Virus record (IMG/VR): IMGVR_UViG_2565956620_000003
Length of the DNA: 37,546 bases
Strand: one strand, 5' to 3'
Origin: a virus
Lineage: Duplodnaviria; Heunggongvirae; Uroviricota; Caudoviricetes
A program made the position numbers and the translations under genes. Positions 3,974 through 37,546 of this stretch are shown here, one piece after another. Every line of letters begins with the position of its first letter. Within the stretch, counting starts at the first letter, position 1. Under the pieces are notes generated by a model. That model did not search any database. It was not told the DNA's origin and saw only the letters and a program-made list of their open reading frames with translations.

Positions 3974-5179
3974 TTAAACCCCTTTGACAACGTCAGCGTT
4001 GACCTGTGGAACCCCGATTTCAGCGGCCAGATTCATGGCGGCTATTACCAGGTTACTGACGGCCAGCGGATACAGCAGGCTGACCATATTTTTACGGTGA
4101 CTTCCCGGATTGCTCAGGCGGGCACGTATGGCATCCACTGCACCGGCGTCCATAATGTCCGTCAGCTGTTTACCGGCCCGTTGCAGTTTGAACGTCAGAA
4201 ATTCTTCAAGGTTATTGTCCAGAGGCAGAAGTTCGACCACCTCACAGCGCTGAACGACTTCACGGACTTCCATATTGCGTTCAGACAGTTTTGTCGCCAG
4301 TTCCGGCTGGCCAATCAGCACGATGGACAGCAGTTTTTTGAAACCGGACTCCAGCTCAAAAAAGCGTTTGAGGTGTTTCAGTGTCGGAATGGGCAGACTG
4401 TGGGCCTCCTCAATCACCAGAACGTGGCTGAACCCCGCCTGGCTGCTGTCTTTCAGGACGCGATGCAACTGGCGAAAACGGGCGTCCTGACTGCGTCTGA
4501 TGCTTTCCAGTGGTGCGATGGTACTGATAATGGCTTCGGCAATAGCTGCTGCCTTCAGGGTTTTCCCTTTCACATCGTTGTCTTCCATAGCGATGATGTA
4601 TGGCTCGATAACAATTACCGGCGCATTCTCGCGGTTGATACGTTCAGTCAGGTCGCGGCGCAGCGTGGATTTACCCGCACCGGACTCACCGATGACGGCC
4701 ATAAACCCACCATGACGGGCTGTCTGGTACAGCGCCTCACGCACGTAGCGAATGTCCGGGGTGGTGAACACATCATCAGAACCCTGCATGGCTTCGTCGG
4801 CGAACGGGTCACGGAAAAGACCAAACGCTTTTTTGGTTGCTGGAAATAACACCTGTTTTTTGAGTAACATATTCTCTTCCTCACTGAGGCTCGTTTTATC
4901 TGTGGTACCCGCTGTACGGGGCGTGGCCGCGCCCTGTACAGCATCAAAACTCTTCGTTGTATCAATCCCCTGACTTTCCAGCCAGGACGCAAGACGCCGG
5001 CGCACTTCTCCGGGGCTGGTGCGGGGCCACGCGTTATGATTCACAATCTGGGCCAGCGTGGCCTCAGAAACATCGACAGCTCTCGCCACCACCGCCTGTG
5101 GAATACGGGCCTCTTTCAGTTGCTGCTTCAGTACCAGCATGTTTCCCTCCTCAGTTGCCGTTAACAATGCTGATAACAC
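3974..5179 (-). CDS. Transposition ATPase (MuB/TniB-like AAA+ protein)
   Basis: 401 aa; Walker A GESGAGKST; N-terminal HTH-like segment; lies immediately downstream of, and overlaps, the transposase gene as for Mu B. Confidence 0.85.
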   Translation of the reverse strand: MLSALLTATEEGNMLVLKQQLKEARIPQAVVARAVDVSEATLAQIVNHNAWPRTSPGEVRRRLASWLESQGIDTTKSFDAVQGAATPRTAGTTDKTSLSEEENMLLKKQVLFPATKKAFGLFRDPFADEAMQGSDDVFTTPDIRYVREALYQTARHGGFMAVIGESGAGKSTLRRDLTERINRENAPVIVIEPYIIAMEDNDVKGKTLKAAAIAEAIISTIAPLESIRRSQDARFRQLHRVLKDSSQAGFSHVLVIEEAHSLPIPTLKHLKRFFELESGFKKLLSIVLIGQPELATKLSERNMEVREVVQRCEVVELLPLDNNLEEFLTFKLQRAGKQLTDIMDAGAVDAIRARLSNPGSHRKNMVSLLYPLAVSNLVIAAMNLAAEIGVPQVNADVVKGV

Positions 5180-8183: not shown

Positions 8184-8498
8184 TTACAAACGACTACCTG
8201 AAATGACACGTTGGTTAATTTCGTTAATACGATCCTGTGCACGTGCCATCTCGTTACTGTGGGCCATGGCGATCTGCAGTAACTGGATGCCCGGTGCAAA
8301 ACGTCCGTTCTCCAGTTTCAGAGCCAGCCCTTCTTCAATGAGGGTGTTGAGTGCCCGGTTGATGTTTGCCGGTGACTCGTGCAGTGCTGTCGCCAGTTCA
8401 CCGTTAGAAATACCGTTCAGGGCATGACCGCGCAGCGCTTTGAGTACCCGGAGGATGCGACTGCCGGAGCTTGAAACATTCGTCTTACTCATCTGCAT
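8184..8498 (-). CDS. Winged-helix DNA-binding protein, hypothetical regulator
   Basis: 104 aa; segment ISNGELATALHESPANINRALNTLIEEGL looks like a winged HTH. Confidence 0.5.
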   Translation of the reverse strand: MQMSKTNVSSSGSRILRVLKALRGHALNGISNGELATALHESPANINRALNTLIEEGLALKLENGRFAPGIQLLQIAMAHSNEMARAQDRINEINQRVISGSRL

Positions 8499-8544
8499 AC
8501 CTCTTTTGCGATATGTGATAACCTTTTACAAAGACTCAAAATAT

Positions 8545-8733
8545 TTAGGCCGCCTGAGCTGTTGATTTCAGTCCCAACTTCACGGCGATTTCATGGGATT
8601 TACCGTAACGGGCTTTGGTCTGCCCGTTGAGAACGCGGTATACCTCATTGCGGTTGTAGCCGTTTTCTTCTGCCCAGCGGGTGAAAGTGATCCCGCGCTG
8701 GCGGAAGAGAGCTTTGACTTGTTCTGCAGTCAT
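8545..8733 (-). CDS. Ner-like (Cro-like) early transcriptional regulator
   Basis: 62 aa; spacing pattern V.A....RG.T......E.GY........L.G.....G..IA..LG matches the Mu Ner / Nlp family; first gene of the leftward early operon, divergent from the repressor. Confidence 0.7.
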   Translation of the reverse strand: MTAEQVKALFRQRGITFTRWAEENGYNRNEVYRVLNGQTKARYGKSHEIAVKLGLKSTAQAA

Positions 8734-8826
8734 CGTTGTCTCCTTTGTTGATGCAATGATGTTTGCCTTATATGTGTTAGATTATTGCTCATAATTATGA
8801 GCATATCAAGATAGAGATTCACTTTT
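8734..8826. promoter_or_regulatory. Divergent early/repressor control region with operator-like palindromes
   Basis: Perfect 18-bp palindrome TGCTCATAATTATGAGCA at 8786-8803; the half-site TTATGAGCA recurs at 8825-8833, overlapping the repressor start codon; AT-rich spacer between divergent genes. Confidence 0.6.
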
Positions 8827-9183
8827 ATGAGCAAAGATATAGGAGAGCGCGTTATTTCTGTGAGGAAGAAAGCAGGGTTGAACCAGAGAGAATTTGCAGC
8901 TCGTTTAGGTATTTCTAATGGTGGTATCAGTCAGATTGAAAATGGAAAGGCGATGCCTGGAGGGGAGTTTCTGTTAAAGATGCATCAAGAGTTTAATGTT
9001 GATGTAAATTGGTTGCTCACTGGAATGAGCACAGATGGTATGACTAGAAACCAGAATCAAATTTCCCCAGAAAAACAAAAACTAATAGATACTTTTGACG
9101 ACATGACACCAGACCAACAACGCTCATTTCTTGAGATTGGGCGATTCTATACTCAGCCAAAACCAGGAAAAATCGCAGGCTGA
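8827..9183 (+). CDS. XRE-family HTH repressor (prophage maintenance repressor candidate)
   Basis: 118 aa; classic Cro/C1-type HTH (LNQREFAARLGISNGGISQIENGK); divergent from the Ner-like gene. Confidence 0.8.
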   Translation: MSKDIGERVISVRKKAGLNQREFAARLGISNGGISQIENGKAMPGGEFLLKMHQEFNVDVNWLLTGMSTDGMTRNQNQISPEKQKLIDTFDDMTPDQQRSFLEIGRFYTQPKPGKIAG

Positions 9184-9269
9184 TACTGACCCGGACACAA
9201 AGGACAGGTGGTTGATCTGGATGCTTTCAGAAAACATCGCCAGTGACATAGTGGAAGTTGTTTGGTTTA

Positions 9270-9300
9270 CCGGAAAGCATTGTGCTTTCCGGTTTTGTTT
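9270..9300 (+). terminator. Rho-independent terminator after the repressor gene
   Basis: 9-bp perfect stem CCGGAAAGC / GCTTTCCGG with loop ATTGT, followed by TTTTGTTT; sits between the convergent repressor and methyltransferase genes. Confidence 0.6.
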
Positions 9301-10064
9301 CAGAAGTTGCAGATTAGCAGTTCACGGCGCGGCGTGGGTTTACCCGCCAGACTGTAGTTGATATTCACTGTCTGTATGTTCAGTCCAGTGAACACCTCGC
9401 GCATCTGCGGGATGTCGTTCACCGAAATTATCATTTTTCCTCTGATGCACCGGGCCAGCTCTGCCAGCCGCGAGTAGTTCCCTTCAGGAAAATCCACACC
9501 ATAGCCTTCCGTACCCAGGTACGGTGGGTCGCAGTAGAACAGCGTGTGCGGACGATCATAACGCTCAATGCACTGTTGCCAGTCCATGTGTTCTATGACT
9601 GTTCTGGAAAGCCGCAGGTGTGCCGCTGACAGTTCTTCTTCAATACGTAGCAGGTTGAAGCGTGGCGGGGATGTGGTGGAGGTACCGAAGCTGTGCTCTG
9701 CCACCTTGCCGCCAAACGCCTGCTTCTGAAGGTAGTAGAACCGTGCCGCACGCTGGATATCCGTCAGTGTTTCTTCCGGGGTGATCTGCAGCCATTTGTA
9801 GATCTGACGGCTGACCAGCGCCCATTTGAACTGGCGGACAAATTCTTCCAGGTGATGCTTTACCACCCGGTACAGATTCACCAGTTCACCGTTGATATCA
9901 TTGATGACTTCGATCTTGCCGGGTGTCTTAAGAAAATAGAGCGCTGCTGCCCCACAAAACGGCTCCACATAACATTCATGCGCCGGAAACAGCGGCAGAA
10001 TGTGTTTTGCAAGGCGGCGTTTGCCACCAATCCACGGCACGATGGGTAATGTCTGCATTTTCAT
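9300..10064 (-). CDS. Dam-family N6-adenine DNA methyltransferase (orphan)
   Basis: N-terminal PWIGGKRRLAKHILPLFP motif and catalytic DPPY motif (FYCDPPYLGTEGYG). Start placed at ATG 10064 (MKMQTLPIVPW); the track ORF extends to 10154 without support. No adjacent restriction endonuclease gene. Confidence 0.85.
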   Translation of the reverse strand: MKMQTLPIVPWIGGKRRLAKHILPLFPAHECYVEPFCGAAALYFLKTPGKIEVINDINGELVNLYRVVKHHLEEFVRQFKWALVSRQIYKWLQITPEETLTDIQRAARFYYLQKQAFGGKVAEHSFGTSTTSPPRFNLLRIEEELSAAHLRLSRTVIEHMDWQQCIERYDRPHTLFYCDPPYLGTEGYGVDFPEGNYSRLAELARCIRGKMIISVNDIPQMREVFTGLNIQTVNINYSLAGKPTPRRELLICNF

Positions 10065-10254
10065 AATCTGCAAGCCTTTTACAATTATTAAAAAATATGG
10101 CAGTCTGGTCAGGTCTCGCGAGACTGACTGAACCTTGGTCGGCTCACAGCGCATTCCTGTGGGGCGATGACCAGCCCGGCTTTCGGGTGCCGGGCTGGTC
10201 GTTCTTTCATGATGCGGCAGGGATGGCGGGATTTCTGTTAATGTGGTTTAGGGA

Positions 10255-10470
10255 TTATCCGGGGCGATTTTCTGACCTTATCCGGTCCAGGGCATAAGTA
10301 ATACCTTCTGCAAAAACAGAAGTATCAAACTGCTTTTGTATTCCCTGAAAATGAAAAGCGGCACGACAGACACTCAGTTCTCCGCGGTATAACCGGATAA
10401 TATCTTCCAGAACATTGTTCACTGCTTCAGCACGGCGCTGATGTTCTGTTAACGTTAATCGGGGATTCAT
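10255..10470 (-). CDS. Hypothetical protein (71 aa)
   Basis: Strong ribosome-binding site AAGGAG 6 nt upstream of the ATG on the minus strand. Confidence 0.5.
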   Translation of the reverse strand: MNPRLTLTEHQRRAEAVNNVLEDIIRLYRGELSVCRAAFHFQGIQKQFDTSVFAEGITYALDRIRSENRPG

Positions 10471-10873
10471 GATGCACTCCTTAAATGATGATTTTTATGT
10501 ACTCACCGGCAAAATATTCTGCCGATTACTGAACACGCATCCGGCACCTCAGGTTTTGATTTATTCTGGTTTTTTCGATATCCCGGACCAGGTTGATCAC
10601 GACCAGAAAAAGTGCCGGTGTTTTATTGATACGCTGATATGGCTTCGGGATAACAGCTATATTCGTTACTCTCAGTTGCTGGCTGTGGGAGCGGCTGATG
10701 TCGTCCTCACGGAAAAAACGCTCTGTCTGCTCAATGCCATGCCGACCTTTCTGCAGCCCCGGCCCGTACCATTTAAAGAGTCACTTCTGGATGCAGTAAA
10801 AACCGGTGAAAATGCAGTCATCGCTGAATGCGTATCCCGGATTATGCGTTACGTGTTTAATGAACGTAAGTGA
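10469..10873 (+). CDS. Hypothetical protein (134 aa), uncertain
   Basis: Only long ORF filling the 378-bp gap between two minus-strand genes; its start codon overlaps the start of the divergent 71-aa gene within TCATGATG; relatively AT-rich segment. Confidence 0.3.
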   Translation: MMHSLNDDFYVLTGKIFCRLLNTHPAPQVLIYSGFFDIPDQVDHDQKKCRCFIDTLIWLRDNSYIRYSQLLAVGAADVVLTEKTLCLLNAMPTFLQPRPVPFKESLLDAVKTGENAVIAECVSRIMRYVFNERK

Positions 10874-11577
10874 GGTTTATCCGCTGTCTGCATAATCCCG
10901 ATAGCCAGTGCGAGGGGAAGTAATTCCGGGGAAACTCTTTCAAACAGCGATGCCCATTCTCCTCTCGCCATCACTCTGTCCAGCCCGCCCTCCAGTTGCA
11001 TTTCAGCAATCTTCCTGATTTCCCGGAACAACGCCGCTTTGATCTCTTCATGCTCAGCTTTATTTTCCGGTGTCAGAAGGTATTCGTCGAAGAACCGGGG
11101 AGGCTGGTTAATCGGGATGTGTTCCTGTTTGCCGTACTTCGGGGACGAACAACATTCTGTTGACTGACCAGTGAGTTTACGTAACTCCTTCATGAGCAGC
11201 TCCTGATCGTAAACTGTCATCAGTGCCGCAATGGTGGCATGCAGTGCATCGGGCAGTATCCAGGGTTGCCGGCCCGTGGGGCATATAACATCCAGCAGCT
11301 CATTCGTCCGACAGATACGCTCCTCGCCGTATGACAACAGGCCCTGTCCCGTGTATTCCTCCAGCCTGATCACTGTGCCAGCCCGTGGTTTCTGCCATGT
11401 GCTCAGATCATCCCCACTCATACGGCGCTCACCGTCCACGTCTGCGGCGTCGACAATGACGCTGTTTCCGAATTCCTGTTTCACCACTTCCTCTATTCGC
11501 GCCAGTACGTAACTTTTACCGCTGCCCACAGGACCGGACACGGTGACAGTGATGACCGGATTCAGTGTCTGCGTCAT
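10849..11577 (-). CDS. P-loop NTPase of unknown function
   Basis: 242 aa; Walker A SGPVGSGKS near the N-terminus and a candidate Walker B (SVIVDAAD); no resemblance to Mu core proteins that I can recognise. Confidence 0.6.
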   Translation of the reverse strand: MTQTLNPVITVTVSGPVGSGKSYVLARIEEVVKQEFGNSVIVDAADVDGERRMSGDDLSTWQKPRAGTVIRLEEYTGQGLLSYGEERICRTNELLDVICPTGRQPWILPDALHATIAALMTVYDQELLMKELRKLTGQSTECCSSPKYGKQEHIPINQPPRFFDEYLLTPENKAEHEEIKAALFREIRKIAEMQLEGGLDRVMARGEWASLFERVSPELLPLALAIGIMQTADKPHLRSLNT

Positions 11578-11707
11578 ATCGTATTCTCCTCTGTGAATAA
11601 TTCATCGTTTATCCTGCACATCCCGTATCCCCGGCTCTCTTAACGCGCTTTAAAATCCTTCGCGCCCTGTATTTGTGATGCTGTCTCCACCAGATAAGGA
11701 GACACAC

Positions 11708-12058
11708 ATGAAAAACCTGAAAAAATTCATTCCCCCTGTTAAAAAACCTCGCCTCAGCGGCTGGCTGCTGACCTCAGTGCTGTTGCTGGGCACCATCGCT
11801 CTGGTCTCACCACAGCAGCTGCCTGTTGTGATCTACAAGCTGGCACTCATCACGCTGGCAGCAGTGCTGGGTTACTGGCTTGACCGTTCGCTCTTCCCCA
11901 AAGCCCGTCCCGGTCAGTACCTGAAACATGACGACAGGCTGATGGCTGAAGGGCGTTTCCCGGTACAGACCGGCCTTCACCTGGTGTTTTCTGCTGCGTT
12001 AATCCGCCGTGCACTGATTGTTGCAGCGGTCTGCCTGGCTGTTGCGATGGGGCTTTAA
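11708..12058 (+). CDS. Putative holin (three hydrophobic segments)
   Basis: Ribosome-binding site AAGGAGA upstream of ATG 11708; product has about three TM-like segments and a charged C-terminus; directly upstream of the endolysin. In-frame GTG/ATG at 11675/11678 could give a longer form. Confidence 0.5.
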   Translation: MKNLKKFIPPVKKPRLSGWLLTSVLLLGTIALVSPQQLPVVIYKLALITLAAVLGYWLDRSLFPKARPGQYLKHDDRLMAEGRFPVQTGLHLVFSAALIRRALIVAAVCLAVAMGL

Positions 12059-12060
12059 TC

Positions 12061-12801
12061 ATGAACTGGCCGCAGATCACCTGGATTGTATGCATGTCCC
12101 TGAAACTGGCTTTCGAAGCCTTTCGGGTCTTCATCAGAACCGAACGCCTGTCAGTCCGCGCCGGGACCTTTCTGGTTCATATGGCATGGGTATTCTTTGT
12201 CGCAATGTTGCTCTGGTGTGGCGGCTTTTTCAGCCAGGCATGCGCAGCACAACCTCCGCAGGCTGCGCTGCAGTATCGCGATGATGTGATCCGTAATGCC
12301 CGGCTTGAATGGGGACTGTCTGCGCCGGTGGCCGATTTCGCCGCGCAACTGCATCAGGAAAGCGGCTGGCGACCTGATGCGATCTCGCCGGCTGGCGCTC
12401 AGGGACTGGCGCAGTTCATGCCTGCCACTGCCGACTGGATAAGCCAGTTGATACCGATGCTGAGCAGTCGTGAGCCGTTTAATCCGGCATGGGCTATCCG
12501 GGCGCTGGTCAGCTATGACCGCTGGCTGTGGCAGCGTGTCAGCGCCGCCAGTGACTGCGAGCGTATGGCCATGACACTGTCGGGCTATAACGGTGGTCTG
12601 GGCTGGGTACAACGGGACAGGCGGCTTGCATCACAGAAAGGTCTGGACAGCACCCGCTGGTTCGGACATGTCGCCACGGTGAATGCCGGACGCAATGCGG
12701 CCAGCTGGCGGGAGAACCGCCATTATCCGCAGCGCATCCTGCGCGAACTGGCACCGCGATATCTCACATGGGGAGGCAGCAGTTGTGTGGCATCTGGTTA
12801 A
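12061..12801 (+). CDS. Endolysin: lytic transglycosylase with N-terminal signal-anchor (SAR-like)
   Basis: SLT-type catalytic region (LHQESGWRPDAISPAGAQGLAQFMPAT); N-terminal hydrophobic stretch MAWVFFVAMLLWCGGFF; alternative start at ATG 12181. Confidence 0.8.
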   Translation: MNWPQITWIVCMSLKLAFEAFRVFIRTERLSVRAGTFLVHMAWVFFVAMLLWCGGFFSQACAAQPPQAALQYRDDVIRNARLEWGLSAPVADFAAQLHQESGWRPDAISPAGAQGLAQFMPATADWISQLIPMLSSREPFNPAWAIRALVSYDRWLWQRVSAASDCERMAMTLSGYNGGLGWVQRDRRLASQKGLDSTRWFGHVATVNAGRNAASWRENRHYPQRILRELAPRYLTWGGSSCVASG

Positions 12802-32865: not shown

Positions 32866-33436
32866 GCCATTACAACTCCCGCCACCGCTTGAGGGTGATA
32901 TCAGTCTCAGGACGCTGGGAAGACTGGCAGGACGGCTGGATAACATCGACCTGAGCGTACTGATGGTCTTTCTCGTCGATATCGTCGACAGTTCCGCGCT
33001 GCCATGGCTGGGCGAGCAGTTCTCACTGTCTGGCGATGGCTGGGAGCTGGCGGAATCGGACGATGTTCGCCGCATGCTTATAAAAGCAGCCATCGAACTG
33101 CACCGGTATAAAGGGACGCCGTGGTCAATCCGGGAAGTTATCCGCCGTTTTGGCTTTGGTGAAGTGGATCTGATTGAAGGCACAGGTCGTCTCAGTTACG
33201 ACGGCAATCGCAGCTATAACGGACTGTTTGTTCATGGAGATGCAGCCGCCTGGGCAGTTTATCGCGTTATTCTGAAACAGCCCATTACTAACGATCAGGC
33301 CGCGATGCTGCGTCAGACGCTGGCTGCATTTGCACCGGCCCGCTGCCATCTGGCCAGCCTGGAGTATCAGTCTGTGGCCATTCGCTATAACAATACCGCC
33401 ATCCATGATGGCAGTTATAACCACGGGAGCAGTTGA
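32858..33436 (+). CDS. Tail protein I-like (baseplate, fibre attachment)
   Basis: 192 aa; P2 gpI position, directly upstream of the fibre gene. Confidence 0.7.
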   Translation: MTEPLQLPPPLEGDISLRTLGRLAGRLDNIDLSVLMVFLVDIVDSSALPWLGEQFSLSGDGWELAESDDVRRMLIKAAIELHRYKGTPWSIREVIRRFGFGEVDLIEGTGRLSYDGNRSYNGLFVHGDAAAWAVYRVILKQPITNDQAAMLRQTLAAFAPARCHLASLEYQSVAIRYNNTAIHDGSYNHGSS

Positions 33437-34770
33437 TTATGGGAAACCTGAATGAAACAGAAAAGTGGGAAGAAAATATCTATCAACTGGAGACATCAGA
33501 TCCGGTTCTGGGTGGTGCAGACGGGATATCAAATCGAGCCCCCCGGCAACTGGCAAACAGGACGAAATGGCTGAAGAAGAAAACGGAGGAAGCCGCACAG
33601 TCACTGGCTGAACACGTACGTTCCCGTAACCACCCGGACGCGACACTGACAGCTAAGGGGTTCACCCAACTGAGCAGTGCCACCAACAGCACCTCTGAAA
33701 CGCTGGCCGCCACACCAAAAGCGGTCAAGGCTGCATACGACCTGGCAGCCGGCAAGGCGCCTGCCAGCCACACTCACCCGTGGAGTCAGATAACGGGAGT
33801 GCCTGCGGCTTCACTGACGGCAAAAGGCACCGTACAACTGAGCAGCGCCACGGACAGTCAATCAGAAACTGAGGCTGCCACGCCGAAGGCGGTCAAGGCT
33901 GCATACGACCTTGCAGCCGGCAAGGCGCCCGTCAGCCACACTCACCCGTGGAGTCAGATAACGGGAGTGCCTGCTGCCTCGCTGACGGCAAAAGGCACCG
34001 TACAATTGAGCAGTGCCATCAACAGCACGTCTGAAATACTGGCCGCCACACCGAAAGCGGTCAAGGCTGCATACGATCTGGCAAACGGAAAACAACCGGC
34101 AGATGCCACGCTCACTGCTCTGGCAGGACTTGCCACTGCAGCAGATCGGTTGCCTTATTTTACCGGAGCAGACCGCGCAGAGCTGGCAACCCTTACAGCT
34201 ATTGGTCGCGCTATTATCGCTAAGGGCAGTATAAAAGATGTCCTCAATTACCTTGGTTTAGGAGAAGGCTCGGCGCTACCCGTTGGTGTGCCTGTTCCGT
34301 GGCCCACCGCCACACCGCCAGCAGGCTGGTTAAAGTGCGACGGGCGCGCCTTTACAAAAGAACAATATCCTGTTCTGGCCAGAGTCTACCCGACCCTCCG
34401 TCTTCCCGATTTACGCGGTGAGTTTATCCGTGGATGGGACGACGGGCGCAAAGTTGATACAGGACGTAAGTTGCTGTCCGCACAAGGGGCAACGCTGTTA
34501 AGAACAGCAATGCTGGATTATTATAACCAGGACACTACGGGAACCTCGGGGATAGTCGGCATGGGATTCAACAATGAAGATTCCATTACAGACCTTCGTG
34601 AGGGCAGCTTTAAAATGCCGGACGGGACAACATTCAGCGATCCTGTCGTGGCAATGTCAGACAATGGTATGCAGGCTACTATTCTGACCTCTATCAGAAG
34701 CGGGTATGCGAAGGGTATCACTGTCAGACCCCGTAGCATTGCACTTAATTACATTGTGAGGGCAGTTTAA
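33433..34770 (+). CDS. Tail fibre protein: constant N-terminal part plus the currently expressed variable C-terminal cassette 1
   Basis: 445 aa; internal 56-aa tandem repeats; its C-terminal about 170 aa begin with the sequence GEGSALPVGVPVPWPTATPPAGWL that is also found at the start of two minus-strand cassettes. Confidence 0.85.
   Translation: MIMGNLNETEKWEENIYQLETSDPVLGGADGISNRAPRQLANRTKWLKKKTEEAAQSLAEHVRSRNHPDATLTAKGFTQLSSATNSTSETLAATPKAVKAAYDLAAGKAPASHTHPWSQITGVPAASLTAKGTVQLSSATDSQSETEAATPKAVKAAYDLAAGKAPVSHTHPWSQITGVPAASLTAKGTVQLSSAINSTSEILAATPKAVKAAYDLANGKQPADATLTALAGLATAADRLPYFTGADRAELATLTAIGRAIIAKGSIKDVLNYLGLGEGSALPVGVPVPWPTATPPAGWLKCDGRAFTKEQYPVLARVYPTLRLPDLRGEFIRGWDDGRKVDTGRKLLSAQGATLLRTAMLDYYNQDTTGTSGIVGMGFNNEDSITDLREGSFKMPDGTTFSDPVVAMSDNGMQATILTSIRSGYAKGITVRPRSIALNYIVRAV
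33646..34100 (+). repeat. About 2.7 tandem copies of a 168-bp (56-aa) tail-fibre repeat
   Basis: Units starting CTGAC at 33646, 33814 and 33982; protein unit LTAKG..QLSSA..S.SE..AATPKAVKAAYDLA.GKAP.SHTHPWSQITGVPAAS. Confidence 0.75.
34246..34271 (+). other. Candidate recombination crossover site A (gix/hix-like), inside the fibre gene
   Basis: TTACCTTGGTTTAGGAGAAGG; its reverse complement aligns with sites B and C around an AAACC-AA core. Confidence 0.5.
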
Positions 34771-35384
34771 TGAGTAACACTGCAGTTCTGGATGAAAACG
34801 GTATCGCCACTGTAGCGGGCGATATCACTGTATATCACTATGACGAGGAAACCCGGGAATACACCTCATCCTCTGTGGAGTATCTCGCCCTTGGGGTGGG
34901 TACTCCGGCACATTCGTGCGCCGATGCACCGCCGGAAGCAATTTCGGGTTACGTGGTTTGCCGGACTGCCACGCTGAACGGGTGGGAGCATGTGCCTGAT
35001 CACCGCGGCGAGACGGTATACAGCACGGAGAACGGTAACCCCGTTCTGATTACCCAACCGGGTGATTACCCGGCGGACACCACCACAAAACAGCCAGCCA
35101 CGCCATGGGATACCTGGAACGGTGAGGCGTGGGTAACCGATACTGAACGGCAGCGAGCCGCAGAACTGGAGGTTGCCAGACAGCAACGCCAGCAACGGGT
35201 GAAACAGGCGATGGCGTCCGTCGATCTTATCAACCTCAAACTGCGTGCTGGTCGCAGTCTGAAACCAGAAGAAACGGCAAAACTGAACGCCGTGCTGGAT
35301 TATATCGACGAGCTGAACGCACTGGATATCAGCAAGGCACCTGAAATCAGCTGGCCGGAAGCGCCACTGGCGCTTGCCGGCTGA
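34770..35384 (+). CDS. Tail fibre assembly protein (Mu U / Tfa-like)
   Basis: 204 aa; start overlaps the fibre stop (TAATG); located inside the invertible segment. Confidence 0.7.
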   Translation: MSNTAVLDENGIATVAGDITVYHYDEETREYTSSSVEYLALGVGTPAHSCADAPPEAISGYVVCRTATLNGWEHVPDHRGETVYSTENGNPVLITQPGDYPADTTTKQPATPWDTWNGEAWVTDTERQRAAELEVARQQRQQRVKQAMASVDLINLKLRAGRSLKPEETAKLNAVLDYIDELNALDISKAPEISWPEAPLALAG

Positions 35385-35390
35385 ACGGTA

Positions 35391-35852
35391 TCACGCCGCC
35401 CTCACGATATAGTTAAATGCGATATTGCGGGGGCGAGCTGATACATAAGCCCACCAGTCATATCTTTGTGCACCTTTAGAGGATGCATCAAATATCCACT
35501 TTTTGCCATTTAAGACCCCCAGTTGATTAGAGGTTAAAGCGTCACCAAATCCGTATTGTGTAGAGCCGAGCGAACTGATATCTCCGGTATCATTATCATC
35601 AAAACCGGATACGATAGTCCCTTCCTGAAATGAAAGTAGCGCACGCCCGGTATCAACCTTGCGACCACCGTCCCATCCACGGATAAACTCACCGCGCAAA
35701 TCGGGAAGACGGAGGGTCGGGTAGACTCTGACCAGAACAGGATATTGTTCTTTGGTGAACGTAGCTCCGTTGCACTGTAACCAGCCTGCTGGCGGTGTGG
35801 CGGTGGGCCATGGAACCGGTACACCAACAGGCAATGCAGAGCCTTCCCCCAA
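35391..35852 (-). CDS. Silent alternative tail-fibre C-terminal cassette 2 (no start codon of its own)
   Basis: Begins at the crossover-like site with TTG (Leu in the fused reading frame) and LGEGSALPVGVPVPWPTATPPAGWLQCNG, about 90% identical at DNA level to the start of cassette 1; ends with the shared motif RPRNIAFNYIVRAA. Confidence 0.7.
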   Translation of the reverse strand: MGEGSALPVGVPVPWPTATPPAGWLQCNGATFTKEQYPVLVRVYPTLRLPDLRGEFIRGWDGGRKVDTGRALLSFQEGTIVSGFDDNDTGDISSLGSTQYGFGDALTSNQLGVLNGKKWIFDASSKGAQRYDWWAYVSARPRNIAFNYIVRAA

Positions 35853-35863
35853 ACCAACGTTTC
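35838..35863 (-). other. Candidate recombination crossover site B
   Basis: Plus-strand sequence CCTTCCCCCAAACCAACGTTTCTATG at the 5' end of cassette 2. Confidence 0.5.
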
Positions 35864-36291
35864 TATGCCGCCCTTACGATGTAATTAAACGCAATGTTAC
35901 GGGGACGAATGGTCACATAATTAACCCCATCGCCTCGCGAAGGACCTGCAAATGAAAAACGGGAGAATCCAGGTTGGTTGTCAACGATTTGGTCATAGTT
36001 ATTGATTGAATGACCAGACCCAATGTCAAAATTACCTGCGTAATGAGAAAAACTTGTACCATCCTGCCGTGAAAGCAGATCGCGCCCTGTATCCACTTTT
36101 CGCCCGTCGTCCCATCCACGGATAAACTCACCGCGTAAATCGGGAAGACGGAGGGTCGGGTAGACTCTGGCCAGAACAGGATATTGTTCTTTTGTAAAGG
36201 CGCGCCCGTCGCACTTTAACCAGCCTGCTGGCGGTGTGGCAGTGGGCCACGGAACAGGTACACCAACGGGCAGCGCCGAGCCTTCCCCCAA
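35863..36291 (-). CDS. Silent alternative tail-fibre C-terminal cassette 3 (no start codon of its own)
   Basis: Begins with TTG at the crossover-like site; first ~200 bp about 97% identical (inverted) to 34262-34460 of the fibre gene; ends with RPRNIAFNYIVRAA; an in-frame TGA lies just upstream of the site on the minus strand. Confidence 0.7.
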   Translation of the reverse strand: MGEGSALPVGVPVPWPTATPPAGWLKCDGRAFTKEQYPVLARVYPTLRLPDLRGEFIRGWDDGRKVDTGRDLLSRQDGTSFSHYAGNFDIGSGHSINNYDQIVDNQPGFSRFSFAGPSRGDGVNYVTIRPRNIAFNYIVRAA

Positions 36292-36308
36292 ACCAACGTT
36301 TATCTCTC
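36283..36308 (-). other. Candidate recombination crossover site C
   Basis: Plus-strand sequence CCTTCCCCCAAACCAACGTTTATCTC at the 5' end of cassette 3, about 55 bp upstream of the invertase gene. Confidence 0.5.
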
Positions 36309-36362
36309 AAATCCTCCCCACATTATCTCAGTACTTTAACCACTCAAAAGGGAGTATTTTTA

Positions 36363-36935
36363 ATGCTGATTGGCTACATACGTGTGTCAACAAATGACCA
36401 AAACACAGATTTGCAACGCAATGCATTAATGTGCGCAGGATGTGAACAGATTTTTGAGGACAAAATGAGCGGAACCAAGTCGGAACGACCAGGCCTGAAA
36501 CGCGCTTTAAAGTGCCTTAAAAGAGGGGATACATTGGTGGTCTGGAAGCTGGATCGGTTGGGTAGAAGAATGAAACACCTCATTGCTCTCACAGAAGAGC
36601 TACGCGCAAAAGGTGTCAATTTTCGCAGTCTGACGGATTCAATCGATACCAGCACTCCGATGGGAAGGTTCTTTTTTCATATGATGGGTGCACTGGCAGA
36701 AATGGAGCGTGAACTGATAGTTGAGCGCACGCTGGCTGGACTGGCTGCTGCGCGAGCACAAGGAAGAGTTGGAGGACGTCGCCCGAAACTGACGAAGGAG
36801 CAGCATGAGCAGATCGCAAGATTGCTCCAGAAAGGGTATGACAGAAAGCGGCTGGCAATTATCTATGATATTGGACTGTCAACGATCTACCGCTATCACC
36901 CTGTTGGGACTGTCATAACGCAACCTGAAATGTAA
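36363..36935 (+). CDS. Serine DNA invertase (Gin/Hin/Cin/Pin family)
   Basis: 190 aa from ATG 36363; N-terminus MLIGYIRVSTNDQNTDLQ with the catalytic serine in RVST; C-terminal HTH; ribosome-binding site AAGGGAG upstream. The track ORF start at 36234 is an unsupported upstream extension. Confidence 0.9.
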   Translation: MLIGYIRVSTNDQNTDLQRNALMCAGCEQIFEDKMSGTKSERPGLKRALKCLKRGDTLVVWKLDRLGRRMKHLIALTEELRAKGVNFRSLTDSIDTSTPMGRFFFHMMGALAEMERELIVERTLAGLAAARAQGRVGGRRPKLTKEQHEQIARLLQKGYDRKRLAIIYDIGLSTIYRYHPVGTVITQPEM

Positions 36936-36967
36936 TTCTTTTTCAAATAATGAAACGCCGCGTGGAT

Positions 36968-37013
36968 GCCATTTATCGCACAAGATAGAGTGCATTTATC
37001 GCGCGGCGCATCA
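36968..37013 (+). other. Prophage right end with two direct transposase-binding-like repeats
   Basis: CATTTATCGC at 36970-36979 and 36994-37003; terminal sequence GCATTTATCGCGCGGCGCATCA resembles the Mu right end as recalled and ends in CA at 37013. Confidence 0.5.
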
Positions 37014-37546
37014 CCACCGGGATTGGCATTCTTTATGTCAAAGAAGCCTTGTTGCAGGAGATGCCGCCGTGGGAAGGGGGCGGTTCTATGATCGCCACCG
37101 TCAGCCTGAGTGAAGGCACTACCTGGACCAAAGCACCATGGCGGTTTGAAGCCGGTACACCCAATACCGGGGGCATCATTGGTCTTGGCGCGGCGCTGGA
37201 GTATGTGTCGGCGCTGGGGCTTAATAACATAGCCGAGTATGAACAGAATCTGATGCACTACGCGCTATCACAGCTGGAATCTGTACCGGATCTCACTCTC
37301 TATGGCCCGCAGAACAGGCTTGGCGTTATTGCTTTTAATCTCGGTAAACACCACGCCTATGATGTTGGCAGTTTTCTCGATAACTACGGCATTGCTGTGC
37401 GTACCGGACATCACTGCGCAATGCCATTGATGGCCTATTACAACGTTCCTGCTATGTGTCGGGCGTCGCTGGCCATGTATAACACCCATGAAGAAGTGGA
37501 TCGTCTGGTGACCGGCCTGCAACGTATTCACCGTTTGCTGGGATAA
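37014..37546 (+). pseudogene. sufS: 3' fragment of host cysteine desulfurase gene sufS (about codons 230 to 406), cut off from its 5' part by the prophage
   Basis: Translation from 37016 reads [31 protein letters not shown] ... [50 protein letters not shown], matching the C-terminal part of E. coli SufS as I recall it; reading frame is lost upstream of 37014. Confidence 0.85.

What the first reader, a model, noticed from the sequence alone, without database searches (positions are those of the whole stretch)
10255..11577. Uncharacterised accessory module: P-loop NTPase plus small ORFs with overlapping divergent start codons
Between the regulatory region and the lysis genes sits a 242-aa protein with a Walker A motif but no recognisable phage-core function. 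Next to it are a 71-aa ORF with a near-ideal ribosome-binding site and a 134-aa opposite-strand ORF whose start codon overlaps the 71-aa gene start within the palindromic TCATGATG. The segment is more AT-rich than the surrounding phage genes. Such non-essential blocks at module boundaries in transposable phages often carry superinfection-exclusion or anti-defence genes.
Basis: inference. Interest (0 to 1): 0.6.

Follow-up and report, generated by a model that had tools for sequence, protein, structure and literature searches.

The report
Two unrelated accessory units in a prophage
The three genes are real but of unknown function: a patchwork protein with a very small nucleotide-binding-loop domain, plus a mobile head-to-head gene pair that also sits in the defence-gene hotspot of an unrelated phage family.

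Summary
The window is a BcepMu-like transposable prophage of E. coli, identical to phage PhiKM, and some part of this 1.6-kb block occurs in 614 of 5,426 complete E. coli genomes. All three ORFs are real genes.

The block is two units, not one.

1. The 242-aa protein is a patchwork. A conserved ~75-residue N-terminal mini P-loop domain is followed by modules that are shuffled, lost or stand-alone in relatives. It is too small and scores too low to be called an ABC or KAP ATPase.

2. The 71-aa and 134-aa genes are an AT-richer, mobile cassette. The 134-aa protein is a mostly acidic winged-helix protein. Its start abuts or overlaps the small gene's start in a CATG. This layout is kept in E. coli, Serratia and other BcepMu-like prophages, and in the cos-proximal hotspot of P2-like phages. 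Both genes are under purifying selection.

Relatives carry different cargo in this slot, so it is variable.

No function is shown. My best guess, with low confidence, is antisense-coupled, mutually exclusive expression: the winged-helix protein in the lysogen, the small protein during leftward read-through.

Superinfection exclusion or anti-defence is plausible from context only.

The parts
10166..10203 (+). Strong hairpin followed by a moderately U-rich tract, lying between dam and the 71-aa gene. It looks like a + strand terminator. On the - strand it is not followed by a U-run.
   Evidence: Folding energy -34.7 kcal/mol, z = -5.8. The Serratia orthologous position has a 14-bp stem followed by UUUUUU. 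The first ~110 nt of the query (10100-10210) are kept in relatives that have replaced the rest of the block.
10255..10470 (-). Gene for a 71-aa hydrophilic protein: the small partner of the head-to-head pair.
   Evidence: Matches phrog_4490 at E = 7e-53. The Serratia 73-aa orthologue is 31% identical, E = 3e-11. L033 has a 69-aa orthologue in the same layout. dN/dS is 0.32 against L028. GC is 44.4%.
10467..10474 (.). The junction TCATGATG. The two divergent start codons overlap by 2 nt, or abut if the ATG at 10472 is the true start.
   Evidence: The same CATG junction is found in L006, L010-L016 and L033.
10477..10482 (-). Ribosome-binding site AAGGAG of the 71-aa gene, encoded inside codons 3-5 of the 134-aa gene.
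10469..10873 (+). Gene for the 134-aa winged-helix protein (133 aa if it starts at 10472). It lies antisense between two - strand genes.
10849..10873 (.). Convergent 25-nt overlap of the 3' ends of the 134-aa and 242-aa genes.
   Evidence: The equivalent overlaps are 37 nt in L006, 4 nt in L033 and 54 nt in L031.
10852..11070 (-). C-terminal helical module of the 242-aa protein (residues 170-242).
   Evidence: Residues 177-228 are 46% identical to the stand-alone Serratia 89-aa protein, E = 2e-11. The module links through that protein to the C-termini of P0053 and P0043. It is present in all four BcepMu-like lineages that carry the winged-helix gene.
11170..11328 (-). Middle module of the 242-aa protein (residues 84-136).
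   Evidence: It recurs at the C-terminus of P0037, P0039 and P0062 and in P0074. It is deleted in the 182-aa variant P0014. pLDDT is only ~50-60.
11350..11577 (-). N-terminal mini P-loop domain of the 242-aa protein (residues 1-76). Walker A is at 11512-11535.
   Evidence: 60 representative proteins at E <= 0.001. About a dozen artefactual fragments of this same protein and two long repeat proteins are not family members. Most of the remainder share only this domain. G20 and K21 are invariant; G15, G18, S22, I28 and E50 are at least 90% conserved. pLDDT is ~90 over residues 10-70.
11578..11707 (.). 130-nt divergent control region between the 242-aa gene and the holin gene. The promoters are unmapped.
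   Evidence: The same ~130-nt divergent spacing from holin to the mini-P-loop gene is seen in L003, L024, L031, L033, L035 and L036; in L004 it is 86 nt. Window positions 11122-11700 are 95-99% conserved even where the rest of the block is replaced.

Best explanation
The interval holds two unrelated accessory units. They sit in the hypervariable cargo slot of a BcepMu-like prophage, between the repressor/dam genes and the lysis cassette.

**Unit 1: the 242-aa gene.** This is the resident first gene of a leftward unit that diverges from the holin promoter region. Its product is a patchwork: a conserved ~75-residue mini domain with a phosphate-binding loop, then shuffled helical modules. Here the last module is one that Serratia encodes as a separate 89-aa gene. 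It probably binds a nucleotide or phosphate. It is unlikely to be a conventional ATPase.

**Unit 2: the 71-aa and 134-aa genes.** This is a horizontally mobile, AT-richer cassette. The large gene encodes a winged-helix protein (acidic in the homologues tested, near-neutral here). The small gene encodes a small hydrophilic protein. Their start codons sit back to back in a CATG.

**Inferred mechanism.** The winged-helix gene lies antisense inside a longer leftward run of genes, and each gene's ribosome-binding site lies inside the other's first codons. The two mRNAs must therefore overlap and be complementary across both translation starts. Expression should be mutually exclusive.
- The winged-helix protein would be made from a promoter inside the small gene when leftward transcription is low, as in the lysogen.
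- Leftward read-through after induction would silence it and make the small protein, which may counteract it.

**Inferred role.** I think the likeliest role is a lysogen-expressed accessory factor that acts through protein-protein contacts in phage-phage or phage-host conflict.

**Shown versus inferred.** The gene anatomy, the homologies, the mobility and the selection are shown. The transcription pattern, the partner binding and the biological role are inferred.
For: **Identity and slot.**
- The block is 100% identical to Escherichia phage PhiKM, a Bcepmuvirus. Some part of it matches in 614 of 5,426 complete E. coli genomes, and 482 carry at least 80% of it.
- The window also encodes Mor, GemA, a MuB-like ATPase, a DDE transposase (PGAP and PhiKM annotation) and a Gin-like invertase.
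- Cargo in the slot differs in UPEC129, A24, B7A, L024, L035 and L036.

**Unit 1.**
- The exhaustive search found 60 representative proteins. About a dozen are artefactual fragments of this same protein and two are long repeat proteins. Most of the remainder share only residues ~1-76. Their lengths run from 73 to 364 aa.
- The other modules recur in different orders in these proteins.
- The N-terminal domain is modelled with confidence; the rest is not.

**Unit 2, large and small partners.**
- The large partner has 85 homologues and a winged-helix fold. The family is acidic, pI 4.6-5.4, though this copy is 6.8.
- The same head-to-head CATG junction with a 60-74-aa opposite-strand ORF occurs in Serratia, L028 and L033 BcepMu-like prophages.
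- It also occurs in P2-like phages and prophages: Midge, ST147-VIM1phi7.1, FSL SP-004 and L013-L018.
- Both partners are under purifying selection.
- The type of small partner tracks the clade of the large partner: phrog_4490 in one, phrog_2454 in the other.
- GC is 44-46% against 55% for the window.

**Antisense embedding.**
- The flanking genes on both sides run opposite to the winged-helix gene in every locus that keeps the small gene, and in L031/L032, where none is called.
- A terminator-like hairpin on the + strand just upstream of the pair implies the winged-helix gene's promoter lies within or next to the small ORF. This holds in the window and in Serratia.
- No terminator was detected between the 242-aa gene and the small gene on the - strand.

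**Context.**
- P2-like homologues lie between gpA and the portal gene (also implied by 39-41). This is the published P2 hotspot of genetic diversity (PMC9122126).
- Neighbours there include a YobI-type ATPase (Pfam) and a Fic protein. Two neighbours match defence models: NsnB/AriA-like in the P2-like locus L017, and PDC-S06 in the K. aerogenes island L021-L023, which is not a P2-like hotspot.
Against: - No transcript data exist here, and the promoter scans found no consistent sigma-70 site inside either gene.
- The small gene is missing in Kluyvera L019 and decayed in the K. aerogenes island L021-L023, while the winged-helix gene stays intact. The large protein therefore does not depend on the small one.
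- There are no PADLOC, Pfam or NCBIfam matches for either partner. There is no significant match to a solved structure by sequence and none among viral structure models.
- A winged-helix fold fits a plain DNA-binding regulator equally well.
- In the window's own clade selection looks relaxed: dN/dS is 0.55 for the large gene against L028, and there are 8 non-synonymous and 0 synonymous changes against L029.
- Walker A is degenerate in a few mini-P-loop homologues (GAESSGKN, SSPTGSGKS).
Confidence: 0.4

Rival explanations
1. The 134-aa protein is an ordinary winged-helix DNA-binding regulator of the MarR/PadR type. It would control the divergent small gene and perhaps neighbouring cargo, making the pair a local regulator-target pair.
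Confidence: 0.25
2. The pair is a toxin-antitoxin or abortive-infection module: one partner is toxic and the other neutralises it.
For: Two small, tightly coupled genes occur in phage hotspots next to defence genes. The small partner evolves faster than the large one; for example the large partner is 94% identical and the small one 65% between L010 and L011. Overlapping divergent 5' ends recall type I systems such as tisB/istR-1 and zor/orz (my own knowledge). In P2-like loci a 33-aa hydrophobic ORF follows the small gene.
Against: The genes are on opposite strands, unlike type II operons. Both are protein-coding, unlike type I. The 71-aa protein is hydrophilic (GRAVY -0.48), and the window has no hydrophobic peptide ORF downstream. 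No toxin, antitoxin or PADLOC model matches. The small gene can decay while the large one persists, which rules out 'large partner is the toxin'.
Confidence: 0.15
3. The block encodes anti-defence or host-takeover factors made during lytic growth. The acidic proteins would bind host proteins, in the manner of T7 gp5.5/5.7 or DNA mimics, alongside the dam methylase.
For: Eight of the eleven products tested across the window and homologous loci are acidic, and none is strongly basic; this window's own 71-aa (pI 8.0) and 134-aa (pI 6.8) proteins are near-neutral. The - strand run of 242-aa gene, 71-aa gene and dam could be one transcription unit, and dam can protect against restriction (inference). 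The Midge depositors note an HHpred similarity of the large partner to T7 gp5.5/5.7 at 91% probability.
Confidence: 0.12
4. The 242-aa protein is a working ABC-type or KAP-type ATPase, as PGAP names its truncated variants.
For: Walker A is intact, and G20 and K21 are invariant. The profile aligns to the Walker A-helix-strand segment of ABC transporter nucleotide-binding domains. An acidic residue after the third hydrophobic stretch (E74) is conserved and could act as a Walker B.
Against: Every Pfam P-loop match is below its cut-off: AAA_30 scores 16.5 against 27, KAP_NTPase 13.4 against 20. Per-domain E-values against solved structures are ~2. There is no ABC signature motif in the sequence. 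Only ~75 residues are conserved, and stand-alone versions are 73-90 aa, well under a full P-loop core. Foldseek of the whole model against the PDB found nothing. Some homologues have lost the Walker A Ser/Thr or the first Gly.
Confidence: 0.1

Closest known systems
Cargo of the P2-like phage hotspot between gpA and gpQ, such as old and tin (Rousset et al. 2022, PMC9122126)
   Same: Homologues of the 134-aa gene and its small partner lie in that hotspot, beside different neighbours from one phage to the next. In the window the pair likewise sits in a variable slot between conserved phage genes.
   Different: The pair matches no PADLOC defence model. I could not find it in the stored parts of that paper's tables. 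No phenotype is known for it. Here it lies in a transposable phage with no cos site.
Face-to-face promoter switches of coliphages 186 (pR/pL) and P2 (Pe/Pc), and divergent type I toxin-antitoxin loci (tisB/istR-1, zor/orz) - from my own knowledge
   Same: Two divergent genes whose transcripts must overlap at their 5' ends. Transcriptional interference or antisense pairing could then make expression mutually exclusive.
   Different: Here there is no intergenic space at all. Both RNAs encode proteins, and each ribosome-binding site lies inside the other gene. No promoter has been mapped. The products are not repressor/Cro-like or hydrophobic toxins.
Winged-helix domains: MarR/PadR regulators and protein-binding versions such as kleisin Scc1-C and JetA/B
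   Different: There is no sequence-family membership. The family is acidic. Two extra C-terminal helices are present.
Minimal P-loop polypeptides ('phosphate-loop protein' 6c2u; de novo ATPase 9jix) and the Walker A segment of ABC nucleotide-binding domains
   Same: These are the best sequence matches to the N-terminal domain. The match covers strand, P-loop, helix and strand only.
   Different: The matches are weak (E = 1e-4 to 0.2) and confined to the motif region. The natural family has its own conserved ER and W motifs and a terminal acidic residue.
The BcepMu gp18-gp20 and KS10 gp11-gp12 slot
   Same: The same genomic position, between the repressor and the holin, filled with hypothetical genes (PMC2628397).
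   Different: Homology to those proteins was not tested directly. tblastn of the phage collection with the 134-aa protein and with the N-terminal domain returned no Burkholderia phage.

Membership tests
P-loop NTPase (ABC-type or KAP-type, as PGAP names the truncated variants) | Walker A motif GxxxxGK[ST] | tested here: met
   GPVGSGKS at residues 15-22. G20 and K21 are invariant in the 25-sequence domain alignment. A few homologues are degenerate.
P-loop NTPase (ABC-type or KAP-type, as PGAP names the truncated variants) | Walker B (a hydrophobic strand ending in Asp or Glu) | tested here: inconclusive
   VIRLEE at residues 69-74 has E74 at least 90% conserved in the wider alignments. The structure tool's secondary-structure read-out (DSSP) assigned no strands in the model, so its position relative to the P-loop could not be checked.
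P-loop NTPase (ABC-type or KAP-type, as PGAP names the truncated variants) | A full alpha/beta core that scores above the family threshold; for ABC, also the LSGGQ signature | tested here: not met
   All Pfam and NCBIfam matches are below their cut-offs and cover only residues ~3-50. The conserved domain is ~75 residues. There is no LSGGQ-like motif in the sequence. Foldseek against the PDB found no match.
MarR/PadR-type winged-helix transcription regulators | Winged-helix fold | tested here: met
MarR/PadR-type winged-helix transcription regulators | Match to the family profile | tested here: not met
   No Pfam, NCBIfam or PADLOC match at E <= 1. A profile search of PDB sequences gave a best E of 0.11.
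MarR/PadR-type winged-helix transcription regulators | DNA binding to an operator near the regulated promoter | not testable with these tools
   Indirect evidence only. The family is acidic (pI 4.6-5.4; this copy 6.8). The only palindrome, at 10507-10524, is not conserved.
DUF2513 (the UniRef name of the Serratia homologue P0031) | Match to Pfam PF10711 | tested here: not met
   Neither P0031 nor the window protein matches it at E <= 1.
Type II toxin-antitoxin module | Co-directional two-gene operon with a recognisable toxin or antitoxin domain | tested here: not met
   The genes are divergent. No toxin or antitoxin family matches.
Type I toxin-antitoxin module | A small hydrophobic toxin plus a non-coding antisense RNA overlapping its 5' region | tested here: not met
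   Both partners are protein-coding and under purifying selection. The 71-aa protein is hydrophilic. There is no Rfam match. Whether the transcripts overlap could not be tested.
Known anti-phage defence systems (PADLOC-DB v2) | Match to a defence-system protein model | tested here: not met
   Only P-loop noise for the 242-aa protein (best E = 0.003). Nothing for the pair or its homologues.
Phage accessory cargo ('moron') in a variable hotspot | Lies between conserved core genes, with content that varies among close relatives | tested here: met
Phage accessory cargo ('moron') in a variable hotspot | Base composition that differs from the host phage | tested here: met
   True for the pair only: 44-46% GC against 54.9%. 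The 242-aa gene is 53.4%.
Phage accessory cargo ('moron') in a variable hotspot | Its own promoter and terminator, with expression from the prophage | tested here: inconclusive
   An upstream + strand hairpin implies an internal promoter, but no promoter or downstream terminator was detected. There are no expression data.

The most novel reading that the evidence does not exclude
The head-to-head pair would be a new kind of phage-borne switch. Two protein-coding mRNAs would act as each other's antisense regulators, because each ribosome-binding site lies inside the other gene. The switch would flip between a lysogen-specific winged-helix effector and a lytic-phase small counter-protein. The cassette moves between unrelated temperate phage families (BcepMu-like and P2-like) and would act in phage-phage conflict. 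Separately, the ~75-residue mini P-loop domain would be a natural, free-standing phosphate-binding module of the size proposed for ancestral P-loop peptides.
Probability: 0.15. Interest if true: 0.7.

Novelty: new variant of a known kind. Interest (0 to 1): 0.45.

Why it matters
- **Hotspot cargo.** Much of the cargo in prophage hotspots is uncharacterised. This block occurs in about 11% of complete E. coli genomes, including strains labelled ST131.
- **Gene layout.** A pair that keeps back-to-back start codons across two phage families suggests regulation built into the layout itself. That can be tested directly with strand-specific RNA-seq and simple clones.
- **The mini P-loop family.** If it binds nucleotide, it would be among the smallest natural P-loop domains. 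Its shuffled modules show how phage accessory proteins are assembled by fusion and fission.
- **Annotation.** The names 'ABC transporter ATPase' and 'KAP family NTPase' given to truncated variants are not justified.

Tried and rejected
- **Family libraries.** Pfam, NCBIfam and PADLOC gave nothing above P-loop noise for any of the three proteins. PHROGs gave only families of unknown function.
- **Solved structures by sequence.** Single sequences and profiles gave no significant relatives.
- **Fold searches.**
  - Foldseek of the 242-aa model against the PDB found nothing; the model is confident only at its N-terminus.
  - The viral structure library (BFVD) gave no match at E <= 0.001 for the winged-helix model.
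  - The afdb50 library was not available.
- **RNA families.** Rfam has no match on 8400-12200.
- **LexA box.** I looked for one in case the block is SOS-controlled like tum of phage 186. There is none in the block.
- **18-bp palindrome at 10507-10524.** I considered it as an operator and rejected it, because it is not kept at that position in other family members.
- **Promoter scans.** Scans of the window and three orthologous loci gave no consistent embedded promoter.
- **Scan for related loci with the N-domain alignment.** The genome-collection scan for the winged-helix family returned only 3 loci.
- **Is the pair the untyped three-gene anti-P1 system of Rousset et al.?** No sequence match in the stored (truncated) supplementary tables, so this is unresolved.
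- **Literature.** No paper mentions these PHROG families or DUF2513.
- **C-terminal module and the winged-helix gene.** I asked whether the module always accompanies the gene. It does in 4 of 4 lineages that carry the gene. P0045 has a distant variant of the motif next to an unrelated antisense gene, so the link is suggestive, not strict.
- **Spurious ORFs.** Rejected on homology and dN/dS.
Full report
**What the window is.** The 1.6 kb around the finding is 100% identical to Escherichia phage PhiKM, classified as a Bcepmuvirus. Some part of it matches in 614 of 5,426 complete E. coli genomes. In 482 of them one match covers at least 80% of the query. The window carries a whole transposable prophage:
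- a leftward early operon with a Ner-like gene, a DDE transposase (PGAP and PhiKM annotation), a MuB-like ATPase, GemA and Mor;
- a rightward repressor gene at 8827-9183;
- a leftward dam methylase gene;
- the block under study;
- a rightward late region: holin, SLT lysin, Mu gp27-like, portal, tail genes, and an invertible tail-fibre segment with a Gin-like invertase;
- a host gene from 37049.

**The observation.** PGAP calls all three ORFs. I add three corrections.
- The 134-aa gene may start at the second ATG (10472). The start codons would then abut rather than overlap in this clade. In clades with a single ATG the overlap is 2 nt.
- The 3' ends of the 134-aa and 242-aa genes overlap by 25 nt.
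- Only the 71-aa and 134-aa genes are AT-rich: 44.4% and 46.2% GC, against 53.4% for the 242-aa gene and 54.9% for the window.

**The slot is variable.** Between the repressor and the holin, related E. coli prophages carry different genes:
- UPEC129 has 328-aa and 193-aa proteins plus a 158-aa truncated P-loop protein.
- A24 has a 182-aa protein plus a 128-aa 'KAP NTPase'.
- B7A has a DUF2441 protein and no P-loop gene.
- Other BcepMu-like prophages place the P-loop gene directly before dam (L024), or next to unrelated antisense genes (L035 and L036).

BcepMu gp17 is the repressor and gp21 the holin, so gp18-20 fill the same slot. KS10 has two hypothetical genes there (PMC2628397).

**The 242-aa protein.**
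- *Close homologues.* The word-indexed search found only close E. coli homologues. They include 247-aa forms, a 182-aa form with an internal deletion, and 141-aa N-terminal forms.
- *Wider family.* The exhaustive search of 1.8 billion representative proteins found 60 at E <= 0.001. About a dozen are artefactual fragments of this same protein and two are long repeat proteins. Most of the remainder match only residues ~1-76. They range from stand-alone 73-90-aa proteins to 364 aa.
- *Conservation.* In the 25-sequence domain alignment G20 and K21 are invariant, and G15, G18, S22, I28 and E50 are at least 90% conserved. A tryptophan near position 61 recurs in most sequences. E74 is at least 90% conserved in the wider alignments.
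- *Structure.* AlphaFold2 models residues ~10-70 at pLDDT ~90. The rest is at 35-65.
- *Similarity to known families.* It is limited to the Walker A-helix-strand segment of ABC nucleotide-binding domains and to minimal or designed P-loop proteins, all below family thresholds.
- *Modules.* The rest of the protein is modular.
  - Residues 84-136 recur at the C-termini of P0037, P0039 and P0062.
  - Residues 177-228 are 46% identical to a separate 89-aa Serratia gene, E = 2e-11. Through that protein they link to the C-termini of P0053 and P0043.
- *Position.* In the ten contexts examined that carry the mini-P-loop gene, it is the first gene diverging from the holin. The intergenic spacer is ~130 nt, or 86 nt in A24.

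I conclude it is a patchwork accessory protein with a phosphate-binding mini domain. It is not a demonstrable NTPase, and it is not a replication or packaging protein.

The key result is that the layout is conserved.
- *BcepMu-like prophages:*
  - Serratia: 73 aa (-), 139 aa (+), 89 aa (-), then holin.
  - L028: 74 aa (-), 133 aa (+).
  - L033: P-loop protein with the C-terminal module, then a 147-aa homologue antisense, then a 69-aa gene, with a 2-nt start overlap.
  - L031: a 168-aa homologue.
- *P2-like phages and prophages:*
  - Midge, ST147-VIM1phi7.1 and FSL SP-004 have a 143-aa homologue head to head with a 63-64-aa ORF, again overlapping by 2 nt.
  - The same holds in Citrobacter, Scandinavium, Escherichia sp. 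and Serratia prophages.
- *Small partners.* They fall into two groups, phrog_4490 and phrog_2454, and each group goes with one clade of the large partner.
- *Selection.* Both genes are under purifying selection in the P2-like clade, with dN/dS of 0.04-0.17 and 0.14-0.33. In the window's own clade selection is weaker: 0.55 and 0.32 against L028, compared with 0.075 for dam.
- *Loss of the small gene.* It is absent in a Kluyvera P2-like prophage. It is decayed in a K. aerogenes island, where the large gene is followed by a PDC-S06 ATPase.
- *Frequency.* The P2-like version occurs in 94 of 5,426 complete E. coli genomes.

**Context of the P2-like copies.** They lie between the replication gene gpA and the portal gene, next to cos (also implied by 39-41). 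This is the published P2 hotspot of genetic diversity (PMC9122126). Neighbours there vary: a YobI-type ATPase, an NsnB/AriA-like ATPase, a Fic protein, DinI, and a 316-aa protein annotated 'polymerase'. The pair itself matches no defence model.

**Topology and inferred mechanism.**
- In every locus that keeps the small gene, and in L031/L032 where none is called, the large gene lies antisense between genes of the opposite strand. In the window these are the 242-aa gene upstream and the 71-aa gene and dam downstream.
- Each gene's ribosome-binding site lies within the first codons of the other. Leadered mRNAs must therefore overlap and be complementary across both translation starts.
- A strong + strand hairpin sits just upstream of the pair at 10166-10203 (-34.7 kcal/mol). 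Serratia has a canonical terminator at the same place. If the large gene is expressed, its promoter must therefore lie in or beside the small ORF.
- No - strand terminator was detected between the 242-aa gene and the small gene.

From this I infer mutually exclusive expression, but I have not shown it. The winged-helix protein would be made when leftward transcription is low. The small protein would be made when leftward transcription is high. Promoter scans gave no support either way.

**Function.** Nothing identifies a function. The context suggests a role in phage-phage or phage-host conflict: a variable slot in one phage family, a diversity hotspot in another, a composition typical of acquired DNA, mostly acidic small proteins, and a fast-evolving small partner. 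The rival readings cannot be excluded without experiments. They are a plain transcription regulator, a toxin-antitoxin-like pair, lytic-phase anti-defence, and a true ATPase.

**Verdict.**
- The families are already catalogued as unknowns. The new points are the conserved back-to-back layout shared by two phage families and the patchwork mini-P-loop family.
- Interest is moderate.

Noticed in passing
window 10166-10203: A very stable hairpin (-34.7 kcal/mol, z = -5.8) between dam and the 71-aa gene. The surrounding ~110 nt (10100-10210) are conserved at 85-93% in relatives that share nothing else of the block (E. coli B7A, Klebsiella phage KP12, phage Phi06_2974 B). In E. coli IGC_RcoliRes_1.1 an extra 126-aa + strand ORF lies just upstream, so the hairpin may be that gene's terminator.
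   Followed up: partly
window 9269-9293: An 11-bp stem between the convergent repressor and dam genes. It is followed by a U-tract on the + strand only, so it looks like a + strand terminator. The hairpin is equally stable on the - strand, but the sequence after it there is A-rich.
   Followed up: partly
window 9300-10154: The longest dam ORF is 284 aa and PhiKM annotates it that way. PGAP starts it at 10064 (254 aa). A promoter-like site lies at 10112-10084 on the - strand, inside the longer ORF.
   Followed up: no
window 33433-36935: A Mu G-segment-like arrangement. It has a tail-fibre gene and its assembly gene on the + strand, and two alternative ORFs with a tail-collar domain on the - strand (35391-35852, 35863-36291). 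A Gin-like serine invertase follows at 36234-36935. A host aminotransferase gene begins at 37049, so the prophage's right end lies at about 36950-37040.
   Followed up: partly
L013 about 4680-4790 (- strand); also ST147-VIM1phi7.1 gp06 (L011 3675-3776): In P2-like loci the small partner is followed on the same strand by a 33-aa hydrophobic ORF (MLSLVYENPWTTIFLLIVASMCLNSVIGALRGQ). It has its own AAGGA ribosome-binding site and is followed by a terminator. The window has no equivalent.
   Followed up: partly
window 10507-10524: An 18-bp near-perfect palindrome, CGGCAAAATATTCTGCCG, inside the 134-aa gene. It uses the codons ATA and CGA, which are rare in E. coli (my own knowledge). It is largely kept in Serratia but not in L028 or the other clades.
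   Followed up: yes
L003 4980-5456 and L004 5100-5486: PGAP names truncated versions of the mini-P-loop protein 'ABC transporter ATPase' and 'KAP family NTPase'. The only basis is Walker A similarity below the family thresholds.
   Followed up: yes
window 10469-10873 versus L029 1872-2276: The two E. coli alleles of the 134-aa gene differ by 8 non-synonymous and 0 synonymous changes. The dam genes of the same two prophages have dS of 0.46. The number is too small to be significant, but it hints at recombination or diversifying selection.
   Followed up: partly
E. coli hits H85-H87: Some E. coli genomes match only the small-gene half, or only the large-gene half, of the P2-like pair. This suggests recombination breakpoints at or near the start-codon junction.
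   Followed up: no
L035 4034-4507: In another BcepMu-like prophage the position antisense to the end of the mini-P-loop gene holds an unrelated 157-aa protein, which from its sequence looks like a coiled coil with a Cys-rich zinc-ribbon motif. An antisense gene embedded in this slot is therefore not unique to the winged-helix family.
   Followed up: partly
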